The position numbers were made by a program, and so were the translations under genes. Below, one piece after another: positions 37,303 to 41,679 of a stretch of DNA of 64,000 bases. The stretch is taken from assembly GCA_951406725.2 (NCBI GenBank), contig OX597818.1, positions 72,106,001 to 72,170,000 on the forward strand. The letters run 5' to 3'. Every line of letters begins with the position of its first letter. The stretch's first letter is position 1. Under the pieces are notes generated by a model that worked only from the letters and a program-made list of their open reading frames with translations, was not told the DNA's origin and ran no database searches. The DNA comes from Octopus vulgaris (Eukaryota).

Positions 37303-40300
37303 AAACAAGAAGGGTAGTAATATTATTTACTACCAGGTGCCCAGCACAAAAGACGAATTAGTCATAAGACGAAAATATTATTCATATAGAAAAATATTAT
37401 TCATGTGGTTATACAATTAAAGGCTCCTAAATAAAGATGCCAAGTGCTGGGAACACAAAAAGGGGATGAATTTATCGAGAGTGAAAATCAAAAACGTTTA
37501 CCGATAATTTTAACAACTCGTACCGCGGTTTCTGCTTCTTTCTAGCAAAACACAGAATATGTTTGCTAAGGCTGGCTTCATCAGCGAGTCGCCTGAATTT
37601 AATCGAGGTCTGCAGCGATGTGGGGCTATATGTTAAACCCGACTACTAGCAGATCTTAACTTTTCAAATCTCTGCGCAGACGCAAAATTTACACGGGCAT
37701 GCCGGGAAGAATTTTACGAATAAATTCATCATGTAGTATGCGAATATAAACAAGAAGGGTAGTAATATTATTTACTACCAGGTGCCCAACACAAAAGACG
37801 AATTAGTCATAAGACGAAAATATTATTCATATAGAAAAATATTATTCATGTGGTTATACAATTAAAGGCTCCTAAATAAAGATGCCAAGTGCTGGGAATA
37901 CAAAAAGGGATGAATTTATCGAGAGTGAAAATCAAAAACGTTTACCGATAATTTTAACAACTCGTACCGCGGTTTCTGCTTCTTTCTAGCAAAACACAGA
38001 ATATGTTTGCTAAGGCTGGCTTCATCAGCGAGTCGCCTGAATTTAATCGAGGTCTGCAGCGATGTGGGGCTATATGTTAAACCCGACTACTAGCAGATCT
38101 TAACTTTTCAAATCTCTGTGCAGACGCAAAATTTACACGGGCATGCCGGGAAGAATTTTACGAATAAATTCATCATGTAGTATGCGAATATAAACAAGAA
38201 GGGTAGTAATATTATTTACTACCAGGTGCCCAACACAAAAGACGAATTAGTCATAAGACGAAAATATTATTCATATAGAAAAATATTATTCATGTGGTTA
38301 TACAATTAAAGGCTCCTAAATAAAGATGCCAAGTGCTGGGAACACAAAAAGGGGATGAATTTATCGAGAGTGAAAATCAAAAACGTTTACCGATAATTTT
38401 AACAACTCGTACCGCGGTTTCTGCTTCTTTCTAGCAAAACACAGAATATGTTTGCTAAGGCTGGCTTCATCAGCGAGTCGCCTGAATTTAATCGAGGTCT
38501 GCAGCGATGTGGGACTATATGTTAAACCCGACTACTAGCAGATCTTAACTTTTCAAATCTCTGCGCAGACGCAAAATTTACACGGGCATGCCGGGAAGAA
38601 TTTTACGAATAAATTAATCATGTAGTATGCGAATATAAACAAGAAGGGTAGTAATATTATTTACTACCAGGTGCCCAGCACAAAAGACGAATTAGTCATA
38701 AGACGAAAATATTATTCATATAGAAAAATATTATTCATGTGGTTATACAATTAAAGGCTCCTAAATAAAGATGCCAAGTGCTGGGAACACAAAATGGGGA
38801 TGAATTTATCGAGAGTGAAAATCAAAAACGTTTACCGATAATTTTAACAACTCGTACCGCGGTTTCTGCTTCTTTCTAGCAAAACACAGAATATGTTTGC
38901 TAAGGCTGGCTTCATCAGCGAGTCGCCTGAATTTAATCGAGGTCTGCAGCGATGTGGGGCTATATGTTAAACCCGACTACTAGCAGATCTTAACTTTTCA
39001 AATCTCTGCGCAGACGCAAAATTTACACGGGCATGCCGGGAAGAATTTTACGAATAAATTCATCATGTAGTATGCGAATATAAACAAGAAGGGTAGTAAT
39101 ATTATTTATTACCAGGTGCCCAGCACAAAAGACGAATTAGTCATAAGACGAAAATATTATTCATATAGAAAAATATTATTCATGTGGTTATACAATTAAA
39201 GGCTCCTAAATAAAGATGCCAAGTGCTGGGAACACAAAAAGGGGATGAATTTATCGAGAGTGAAAATCAAAAACGTTTACCGATAATTTTAACAACTCGT
39301 ACCGCGGTTTCTGCTTCTTTCTAGCAAAACACAGAATATGTTTGCTAAGGCTGGCTTCATCAGCGAGTCGCCTGAATTTAATCGAGGTCTGCAGCGATGT
39401 GGGCTATGTGTTAAACCCGACTACTAGCAGATCTTAACTTTTCAAATCTCTGCGCAGACGCAAAATTTACACGGGCATGCCGGGAAGAATTTTACGAATA
39501 AATTCATCATGTAGTATGCGAATATAAACAAGAAGGGTAGTAATATTATTTACTACCAGGTGCCCAGCACAAAAGACGAATTAGTCATAAGACGAAAATA
39601 TTATTCATATAGAAAAATATTATTCATGTGGTTATACAATTAAAGGCTCCTAAATAAAGATGCCAAGTGCTGGGAACACAAAAGGGGATGAATTTATCGA
39701 GAGTGAAAATCAAAAACGTTTACCGATAATTTTAACAACTCGTACCGCGGTTTCTGCTTCTTTCTAGCAAAACACAGAATATGTTTGCTAAGGCAGCTTC
39801 ATCAGCGAGTCGCCTGAATTTAATCGAGGTCTGCAGCGATGTGGGGCTATATGTTAAACCCGACTACTAGCAGATCTTAACTTTTCAAATCTCTGCGCAG
39901 ACGCAAAATTTACACGGGCATGCCGGGAAGAATTTTACGAATAAATTCATCATGTAGTATGCGAATATAAACAAGAAGGGTAGTAATATTATTTACTACC
40001 AGGTGCCCAACACAAAAGACGAATTAGTCATAAGACGAAAATATTATTCATATAGAAAAATATTATTCATGTGGTTATACAATTAAAGGCTCCTAAATAA
40101 AGATGCCAAGTGCTGGGAACACAAAAAGGGGATGAATTTATCGAGAGTGAAAATCAAAAACGTTTACCGATAATTTTAACAACTCGTACCGCGGTTTCTG
40201 CTTCTTTCTAGCAAAACACAGAATATGTTTGCTAAGGCTGGCTTCATCAGCGAGTCGCCTGAATTTAATCGAGGTCTGCAGCGATGTGGGCTATATGTTA

Positions 40301-41679
40301 AACCCGACTACTAGCAGATCTTAACTTTTCAAATCTCTGCGCAGACGCAAAATTTACACGGGCATGCCGGGAAGAATTTTACGAATAAATTCATCATGTA
40401 GTATGCGAATATAAACAAGAAGGGTAGTAATATTATTTATTACCAGGTGCCCAGCACAAAAGACGAATTAGTCATAAGACGAAAATATTATTCATATAGA
40501 AAAATATTATTCATGTAGTTATACAATTAAAGGCTCCTAAATAAAGATGCCAAGTGCTGGGAACACAAAAGGGGATGAATTTATCGAGAGTGAAAATCAA
40601 AAACGTTTACCGATAATTTTAACAACTCGTACCGCGGTTTCTGCTTCTTTCTAGCAAAACACAGAATATGTTTGCTAAGGCTGGCTTCATCAGCGAGTCG
40701 CCTGAATTTAATCGAGGTCTGCAGCGATGTGGGCTATATGTTAAACCCGACTACTAGCAGATCTTAACTTTTCAAATCTCTGCGCAGACGCAAAATTTAC
40801 ACGGGCATGCCGGGAAGAATTTTACGAATAAATTCATCATGTAGTATGCGAATATAAACAAGAAGGGTAGTAATATTATTTACTACCAGGTGCCCAGCAC
40901 AAAAGACGAATTAGTCATAAGACGAAAATATTATTCATATAGAAAAATATTATTCATGTGGTTATACAATTAAAGGCTCCTAAATAAAGATGCCAAGTGC
41001 TGGGAACACAAAAAGGGGATGAATTTATCGAGAGTGAAAATCAAAAACGTTTACCGATAATTTTAACAACTCGTACCGCGGTTTCTGCTTCTTTCTAGCA
41101 AAACACAGAATATGTTTGCTAAGGCTGGCTTCATCAGCGAGTCGCCTGAATTTAATCGAGGTCTGCAGCGATGTGGGGCTATATGTTAAACCCGACTACT
41201 AGCAGATCTTAACTTTTCAAATCTCTGCGCAGACGCAAAATTTACACGGGCATGCCGGGAAGAATTTTACGAATAAATTCATCATGTAGTATGCGAATAT
41301 AAACAAGAAGGGTAGTAATATTATTTACTACCAGGTGCCCAGCACAAAAGACGAATTAGTCATAAGACGAAAATATTATTCATATAGAAAAATATTATTC
41401 ATGTGGTTATACAATTAAAGGCTCCTAAATAAAGATGCCAAGTGCTGGGAACACAAAAAGGGGATGAATTTATCGAGAGTGAAAATCAAAAACGTTTACC
41501 GATAATTTTAACAACTCGTACCGCGGTTTCTGCTTCTTTCTAGCAAAACACAGAATATGTTTGCTAAGGCTGGCTTCTATCAGCGAGTCGCCTGAATTTA
41601 ATCGAGGTCTGCAGCGATGTGGGGCTATATGTTAAACCCGACTACTAGCAGATCTTAACTTTTCAAATCTCTGCGCAGA
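37303..41679 (-). mobile_element. Tandem array of about 444-bp monomers (about 9.8 copies), each with a hammerhead ribozyme: non-LTR retrozyme-like
   Basis: Equivalent positions fall at 37306, 37751, 38195, 38640, 39085, 39529, 39972, 40416, 40859 and 41304. Units are near-identical, carry no long ORF, and are flanked by (TA)n. Confidence 0.9.
37512..37593 (-). ncRNA. Type I hammerhead ribozyme (first of 10 copies in the array)
   Basis: Minus strand: ggcgactcg CTGATGA agc..tagcaaa..tttgcta..gca GAAAC CGCG GTA cgagttgtt. Helix I is 9 bp with G-U pairs and helix III is the palindrome ACCGCGGT. Predicted cleavage is between 37521 and 37520. Confidence 0.82.

What the first reader, a model, noticed from the sequence alone, without database searches (positions are those of the whole stretch)
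37303..41679. Ten-copy, 444-bp hammerhead-ribozyme array: candidate cephalopod non-LTR retrozyme (circular RNA retroelement)
Seen in the sequence: about 9.8 near-identical 443-445-bp units with no ORF, sharply bounded by (TA)n. Each has a minus-strand type I HHR (9-bp helix I, CUGAUGA, GAAAC, GUA site, palindromic ACCGCGGU helix III). The monomer also has long-range complementarities (cccagcac/gtgctggg, gatgaattta/taaattcatc, the hairpin ggtagtaa..ttactacc). The last copy has a 1-nt insertion in the core. Established: animal non-LTR retrozymes are tandem HHR-containing monomers processed into linear and circular RNAs and thought to use PLE machinery. Inference: this is one recent insertion templated by rolling-circle reverse transcription of a roughly 444-nt circRNA, not an ordinary satellite. 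The helix II base has an atypical A-A apposition.
Basis: partly seen in the sequence, partly recalled or inferred. Interest (0 to 1): 0.92.

Follow-up and report, generated by a model that had tools for sequence, protein, structure and literature searches.

The report
Mobile self-cleaving RNA tandem repeat
This is a ten-copy array of a 445-base non-coding repeat with a hammerhead ribozyme motif; its scattered relatives end the way Penelope-type retrotransposon insertions do, which points to the enzyme that copies such repeats and makes that testable.

Summary
Confirmed: 9.84 units of 443-445 bp between (TA)n tracts, no ORF, a type I hammerhead (HHR) motif on the minus strand, intact in 9 of 10 units. 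It is the longest array seen of a young dispersed family (137 exact HHR-junction matches genome-wide), so not a local satellite; it fits a non-LTR retrozyme. In 70 other loci, 98 of 107 outer 3' ends fall in two internal zones about 110 nt apart and none at the cleavage site. Of 37 inverted loci, 30 use one of each end and none uses the same end twice. A young, intact Hydra-type Penelope-like element (PLE) in the genome shows the same two-end, inverted, (TA)n-targeted anatomy and the same A-A at the base of helix II. Seventeen private substitutions shared by all overlapping units of a locus favour a monomer, probably circular, template. Not shown: cleavage, expression, circularity, read support for ten copies, or which PLE acts; no sequence homology to a PLE was found. 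An earlier scan note reports a ribozyme-less repeat with this pattern in another genome.

The parts
37303..41679 (-). Tandem array, nine full 443-445-bp units plus 378 bp; RNA sense is the minus strand
37057..37297 (.). (TA)n target tract at the element's 3' end
   Evidence: 73 exact TA-junction matches of this end class genome-wide, control 0
41681..42097 (.). (TA)n target tract at the 5'-truncated end
37303..37410 (-). About 108-nt 'tail' between the two preferred 3' ends of the family: distal (unit 439-445/1, used by this insertion) and proximal (unit 108)
37313..37334 (-). 8-bp hairpin just 5' of the distal end in the RNA
   Evidence: sequence; folds
37512..37593 (-). Type I HHR of unit 1 (9-bp helix I, A-A plus short helix II with a long hairpin insertion, 2-bp helix III with CGCG loop); predicted cleavage 37521|37520
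37521..37964 (-). Predicted 444-nt monomer between the first two cleavage sites (candidate circle)
   Evidence: inference
37956..38037 (-). HHR unit 2
38401..38482 (-). HHR unit 3
38846..38927 (-). HHR unit 4
39291..39372 (-). HHR unit 5
39734..39814 (-). HHR unit 6 (1 nt shorter; carries the 272A allele of sister subfamilies)
40178..40259 (-). HHR unit 7
40621..40702 (-). HHR unit 8
41065..41146 (-). HHR unit 9
41510..41592 (-). HHR unit 10, 1-nt insertion in the CUGAUGA core
41664..41682 (.). 5' truncation at unit position 378 within a short palindrome; the same junction occurs in an independent locus (L077)

Best explanation
A non-autonomous non-LTR retrozyme copied in trans by a PLE reverse transcriptase/GIY-YIG endonuclease. 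Shown from DNA: dispersed tandem copies in (TA)n, variable 5' truncation, frequent inverted second arms, two fixed internal 3' ends. Inferred: read-through transcripts of loci with two or more units self-cleave at successive HHRs (probably as dimers, given the 2-bp palindromic helix III); the 444-445-nt monomer is ligated to a circle; a PLE protein binds it, nicks both strands of (TA)n and starts reverse transcription at two set sites about 110 and 218 nt downstream of the cleavage site, one per target strand; rolling-circle synthesis gives arms of 0.1 to about 10 units, which are joined head to head or to the target. My odds per step: PLE-driven retroelement 0.9; HHR active 0.7; circular monomer template 0.6; Hydra-type family as the partner 0.55; all ten units from one event 0.5.
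For: 133 matches among 40 scored of 924 candidates on many contigs; 137 exact matches across the cleavage junction, control 0; 0 TA junctions at the cleavage site. 107 outer ends in 70 loci: 57 distal, 34 at unit 100-114, 7 at 82-141, 9 elsewhere, 0 at 210-228. TA microhomologies at unit 82 and 325 are as long or longer but are used about once each, so position, not pairing alone, sets the start. 37 of 71 loci are inverted: 30 distal+proximal, 0 with the same end twice. Intact 727-codon PLE with Hydra motifs RWK, DKT, CxxC/CxH (motifs from PMC8557442 section 11): 21 of 21 ends at +72 or +139 into (TA)n, 7 of 7 inverted loci with one of each; ORF DNA identity 95.5-99.95%; HHR with A-A at 10.1/11.1. 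A PLE RT starts at two internal sites in vitro, matching the genomic tail (PMC11167929). 17 locus-private substitutions are in all overlapping units, 7 across both arms; 9 of 17 are A>G against 6 of 78 unit-specific ones (Fisher p 6e-5, post hoc), so they are unlikely to be converted post-insertion mutations. 28 of 112 arms cross the cleavage junction two or more times. Four HHR families keep the core while helices I and II change sequence and stay paired.
Against: No sequence homology between the monomer and either PLE family examined (none; two weak 46-48-nt hits at E 0.03); tail similarity among this family, family B and the PLE is at shuffle level (215-888 of 1000 shuffles score as well). 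A second, Neptune-like (TA)n-inserting PLE family exists, and octopus Naiads also prefer (TA)n (PMC8557442 supplement). In PMC11167929 HHR cleavage was not needed and unprocessed RNA was the main substrate; in the 2026 preprint 8 of 9 Xenopus dimers did not cleave. Rfam finds no HHR; the window's allele favours a misfold by 3 kcal/mol. Core positions are barely more conserved than the rest (4 of 1500 against 224 of 53506). Some private variants sit in part of the units (L099 2/6, 2/7, 4/7; window 2/10), so other processes also act. No read-level or RNA data.
Confidence: 0.6

Rival explanations
1. Same PLE-driven element, but the template is an uncleaved linear multimeric transcript; the HHR is dispensable and long arrays such as this one grow later by unequal exchange in DNA.
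For: HHR mutants did not impair PAc insertion in vitro (PMC11167929). Mosaic variants in the window array and L099. Weak predicted HHR fold. The 2026 preprint proposes local tandem amplification.
Against: Private, strand-biased substitutions fixed in every unit and both arms. Subfamily alleles are present in all overlapping units in 228 cases and in part of them in 17, which suggests repeated passage through one monomer. The other six loci of the window's subfamily each cross the junction at most twice.
Confidence: 0.27
2. Cleaved linear monomers are copied and concatenated by RT template jumping, without a circle.
For: Would also give homogeneous units; template jumping is known for R2 RT (recalled).
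Against: No end at the cleavage site; 137 junction copies match a 20-mer exactly, whereas jumping usually leaves ragged joints (expectation recalled). The exact-pattern search cannot see ragged joints, but the 71 aligned loci showed arms running through the site.
Confidence: 0.06
3. Ordinary satellite or Helitron/Helentron-type DNA rolling-circle repeat with a chance HHR-like motif.
For: Tandem units, a subterminal hairpin, no Rfam hit.
Against: Dispersed short arrays, polar anatomy with variable 5' truncation, inverted arms and two fixed ends identical in kind to an intact PLE; same core with different paired helices in four families.
Confidence: 0.03
4. The family is real but the ten-unit length or the unit differences at this locus are assembly products.
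For: Longest arm seen (9.84 units; next 4.97 and 4.92); several differences are homopolymer indels or alleles of sister subfamilies, as mis-mapped polishing reads would give.
Against: Both ends have the family's normal junction types; other loci hold 5-7 units in total.
Confidence: 0.1

Closest known systems
Metazoan non-LTR retrozymes (Cervera and de la Pena 2020, PMC7229834; Li, Clavereau and Pollet 2026, 10.64898/2026.07.22.740005)
   Same: Tandem non-coding units of a few hundred bases, type I HHR per unit, GC below 50%, no LTR structure, dispersed monomers to multimers, co-occurrence with PLEs; weak palindromic helix III and a non-canonical helix II base as in axolotl HHRs (U-U there).
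   Different: A-A at 10.1/11.1 and a long hairpin in helix II; strict (TA)n targeting; two fixed internal 3' ends with inverted arms, which the parts of those papers I read do not describe; no homology to a PLE pLTR found, unlike 24 of 57 Xenopus families; RNA and cleavage untested.
Hydra-clade PLEs (Craig et al. 2021, PMC8557442)
   Same: (TA)n insertion, HHR, partial tandems, inverted 5'-truncated arm, tail at one end; a young member is in this genome with an A-A HHR.
   Different: The finding has no ORF; its tail is about 108 nt against 67 nt in the local PLE and 30-40 nt in published PLEs.
Poseidon PLE of Anolis (PAc; Frangieh et al. 2024, PMC11167929)
   Same: Two internal RT start sites downstream of the HHR, both target strands extended, AT-rich target.
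   Different: There the start site is not homologous to the target and no strand preference between sites was seen; here most ends carry a short TA microhomology and the two arms always use different sites.

Membership tests
Non-LTR retrozyme | Tandem repeats of about 150-450 bp (up to 972 in the 2026 preprint) | tested here: met
   443-445 bp, 9.84 units
Non-LTR retrozyme | Type I HHR motif in at least two consecutive units | tested here: met
   Core and three helices in 9 consecutive units; no Rfam hit; A-A at helix II base
Non-LTR retrozyme | No coding capacity, no LTR arrangement, GC below 50% | tested here: met
   Longest stop-free stretch 54-56 codons; GC 0.37-0.38; PBS/PPT not searched separately
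Non-LTR retrozyme | Dispersed mobile copies | tested here: met
Non-LTR retrozyme | Self-cleavage of the transcript | not testable with these tools
   Only folding energies
Non-LTR retrozyme | Expressed as linear and circular monomer RNA | not tested
   No RNA holder on record listed; no reads were laid
Non-LTR retrozyme | Target-site duplication longer than 4 bp when present | tested here: inconclusive
   Targets are (TA)n, so a TSD cannot be read
PLE-mobilised element | Two internal 3' ends (tail), inverted 5'-truncated arm, partial tandem | tested here: met
   same in the local PLE
PLE-derived pLTR | Sequence homology to the pLTR of an autonomous PLE | tested here: not met
   None with 14 Hydra-type loci, 20 loci of an old PLE family or 14 Neptune-like loci; other PLE families were not examined
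Autonomous PLE | RT plus GIY-YIG ORF | tested here: not met
   No such ORF in the unit or attached in flanks of 31 loci read with about 3.5 kb each side
Hydra clade (candidate partner P0001, not the finding itself) | RWK, DKT, CxCX5C linker, CxxC and CxH in EN, HHR, (TA)n target | tested here: inconclusive
   RWK, DKT, CxxC, CxH, HHR and (TA)n present; linker reads CxFX5C; unit 3.4 kb; no Pfam or PDB hit; no tree built
Helitron/Helentron | Fixed 5' end and single fixed 3' end | tested here: not met
   5' ends vary, two 3' ends, inverted arms; defining features recalled

The most novel reading that the evidence does not exclude
These arrays are the genomic footprint of rolling-circle retrotransposition of a ribozyme-made RNA circle by a Hydra-type PLE protein that primes the two target strands at two different fixed sites on one template. 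An A-A-based HHR variant is shared by the PLE and its passenger RNAs, and at least three such passenger families (445, 546, 350 nt) coexist with different target preferences. The U-to-C bias of template-level changes may record RT error across generations of source loci or, less likely, an RNA-to-RNA step.
Probability: 0.4. Interest if true: 0.75.

Novelty: new member of a known kind. Interest (0 to 1): 0.55.

Why it matters
PLE mobilisation of animal retrozymes has been argued from co-occurrence, HHR type and pLTR similarity; both papers I read call the mechanism unresolved. Here insertion ends give direct DNA evidence of PLE-type priming, and the genome holds a very young passenger and a young intact candidate helper. 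That makes two open questions testable with one protein and one 445-nt RNA: whether a PLE RT copies a circle, and what the HHR is for. The strict one-site-per-strand rule also bears on how PLE tails and inverted arms form.

Tried and rejected
Rfam: only spurious hits on (TA)n. Priming at the cleaved monomer end: 0 matches. Old PLE family seeded from window 7305-7715: no similarity to the unit in 20 loci. One search repeated almost exactly and added nothing. A 37-nt, 75% motif between this family and family B (E 0.027) was not significant against shuffles (215 of 1000), so I do not claim a shared recognition motif. HHR core conservation test was uninformative. Sequencing runs: no RNA holder listed on record; 14 holders are guessed RNA and kept as contigs, in organisms coded A and B, with further holders in C and D; no reads were laid, so expression, strand and copy number remain open. 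P0001 has no Pfam or PDB match. Rows left out before counts: nine loci that are the window itself, duplicates (L027/L028, L030, L037, L039, L043 replaced by wider fetches or their twin), and L104, a noisy chimeric duplicate region; 37 of 137 pattern matches were not listed and not examined. The 39 top-scoring loci are biased to full units starting at position 1; the 31 pattern-picked loci give the same two ends (21 distal, 21 proximal-zone, 3 other) but all contain the HHR junction, so short copies are under-sampled. Scan look-up by sequence found nothing.

Full report
Observation. The array spans 37303-41679: nine units of 443-445 bp and 378 bp of a tenth, 99% alike, between (TA)n tracts. It has no ORF (54-56 codons at most). 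Each unit has on the minus strand a type I hammerhead: helix I of 9 pairs (3 G-U), CUGAUGA, a helix II that opens with A-A and two G-C pairs and carries a long hairpin, GAAA, a 2-bp helix III with a palindromic CGCG loop, and GUA, with predicted cleavage at 37521|37520. Unit 10 has one extra base in the core. Rfam reports no hammerhead. The isolated motif folds no better than shuffles and the core-open fold is 3 kcal/mol above a fold that buries CUGA; with the 271C/272A allele of sister subfamilies the gap is 2. The monomer is more structured than shuffles (z -2.67).

A dispersed young family. The genome (2.8 Gb, 227 contigs) gave 133 matches from 40 scored of 924 candidates, 137 exact matches to a 20-mer across the cleavage junction (control 0) and 73 exact matches to one TA-junction class (control 0). 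I analysed 71 non-redundant loci: 39 top-scoring, 31 picked from HHR pattern lists, and the window. Six subfamilies differ by stepwise diagnostic alleles; unit-specific substitutions are 0.07-0.30%, so activity is recent. The window holds the longest arm seen (9.84 units; next 4.97 and 4.92).

Insertion anatomy. Copies are polar. The end that is 3' in the HHR strand is nearly fixed: of 107 outer ends in 70 loci, 57 lie at unit 430-445/1-8, 34 at 100-114, 7 elsewhere in 82-141, 9 at other places and none at 210-228; a direct search for a TA junction at the cleavage site found 0. The other end is variably truncated. 37 of 71 loci have an inverted second arm; 30 pair a distal with a proximal end (29 with TA on both sides), 7 have one stray end, and none uses the same end twice. 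TA microhomologies at unit 82 and 325 are as long as or longer than that at 108 yet are used about once each, and 15 ends at 439 lack a perfect one, so the start sites are set by position on the RNA.

The same anatomy in a PLE. An endonuclease fragment beside a related HHR led to a high-copy family with many intact 723-727-codon frames. Its protein has RWK, DKT, CxxC and CxH as described for Hydra-clade PLEs, but CxF where CxC is expected (PMC8557442 section 11). Nine ORFs are 95.5-99.95% identical in DNA. All 21 3' ends in 14 loci lie 72 or 139 nt from the HHR core start and run into (TA)n; 7 of 7 inverted loci use one of each. Its minimal HHR also has A-A at 10.1/11.1. Frangieh et al. showed that a PLE RT extends both target strands from two internal RNA sites that define the genomic tail (PMC11167929). 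I infer that a PLE protein inserts this repeat. Which one is not settled: the monomer has no homology to this PLE, a Neptune-like family with 91-96% protein identity between copies also ends in (TA)n, and octopus Naiads prefer (TA)n (PMC8557442 supplement).

Sister families. A 546-nt HHR tandem family has two ends about 110 nt apart in (TA)n; 17 of 19 inverted loci pair them, in a sample biased to one end. An older 350-nt family has two ends about 52 nt apart in non-microsatellite AT-rich DNA. The four HHRs keep the core while helices I and II change sequence and stay paired, with A-A or A-C at the helix II base. That is the best evidence here that the motif is a maintained ribozyme.

Circle or line. 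28 of 112 arms cross the cleavage junction at least twice. 17 substitutions found in only one locus are present in all its overlapping units, 7 of them in both inverted arms (for example 75A>G in 6 of 6, 420A>C in 5 of 5, 314C>T in 4 of 4); 78 private changes are in only part of the units. The shared class is 9 of 17 A>G with one T>C, against 6 of 78 A>G in the other class, which is rich in G>A and C>T (p 6e-5, post hoc). Conversion of later mutations should copy the second spectrum, so the shared changes were probably in the template, and one monomer templated all units. A circle explains this, exact junctions and growth in unit number together. Against it: partial sharing in L099 and in the window (42G>A in 3 of 10, 28C>T in 2 of 10, and 105A, 272A, 323A, 328G each in one unit), and PAc's indifference to HHR cleavage in vitro. 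The window mosaic could be template switching, later exchange or polishing; without reads it cannot be resolved.

Comparison and novelty. Every tested feature of a non-LTR retrozyme is met; cleavage and circular RNA are untested. It works like a PLE passenger but is not shown to derive from a PLE pLTR. Papers seen: PMC7229834 parts 2-4 of 6 (results, discussion; supplement unreadable, and it may list mollusc or cephalopod retrozymes); 10.64898/2026.07.22.740005 parts 1-3 of 5 (supplements not seen); PMC8557442 passages, section 11 and supplement rows; PMC11167929 parts 1-2 of 4; others only as listings. Seven searches showed no paper on a cephalopod retrozyme or on two-site ends in retrozymes; the library lacks most subscription papers. 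The host taxon was not tested. An earlier scan note (e1-7810660, unchecked) describes a tRNA-bearing tandem repeat with a PLE pattern in (TA)n in another genome; it came after my analysis.

Verdict. New member of a known kind, interest 0.55: the class is published, but the insertion ends and a young candidate helper make its open mechanism testable.

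Noticed in passing
L114, L116, L184 (G000:C2:8128000-8133500) and L110-L139: Second HHR tandem family, 546 nt, young, (TA)n-targeted, two 3' ends about 110 nt apart; 1384 first-look candidates. All four units at L184 share a private CUGAAGA core variant.
   Followed up: partly
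L188, L190-L209: Third HHR tandem family, 350 nt, older (about 91-93% to the query), A-A helix II base, two ends about 52 nt apart, AT-rich but non-microsatellite targets; 2802 candidates. Its sequence upstream of the core weakly resembles the helix II insertion of the finding (71% over 63 nt, E 0.006).
   Followed up: partly
L170-L183: Young intact Hydra-type PLE family, 3.43-kb unit, tandem copy at L170, minimal HHR with A-A.
   Followed up: yes
L210-L223: Neptune-like PLE family with frames up to 850 codons, (TA)n at the 3' end and only a degenerate HHR-like stretch; at L171 it abuts a Hydra-type copy.
   Followed up: partly
unit position 42 (window 37344 and repeats): G>A recurs in 7 loci of several subfamilies, 9 of 135 covering units, and is mosaic in all six loci with more than one unit: possible RT error hotspot or modified base.
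   Followed up: partly
window 36513-37056: 3' end of a LINE-like element (152-codon stop-free frame, short repeated tail) directly upstream of the target (TA)n; a similar tail flanks L025. No Pfam hit; the LINE label is recalled.
   Followed up: partly
window 7305-7718: Fragment of an older PLE family (GIY-YIG hit in a relative; 3600 candidates).
   Followed up: partly
L104 (G000:C8:86112500-86120500): Copies of the finding's family and family B abut in a noisy duplicated segment with apparently mixed sequence; assembly noise or recombination.
   Followed up: no
L077 and window 41679: Two independent loci share the same 5' truncation at unit 378; six more arms end at 362-372.
   Followed up: no
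window 17476-17955: Tc1/mariner-like transposase N-terminal fragment (159 codons; label recalled).
   Followed up: no
L057 1941-3263: 441-codon WD40-like single frame beside a PLE fragment (label recalled).
   Followed up: no
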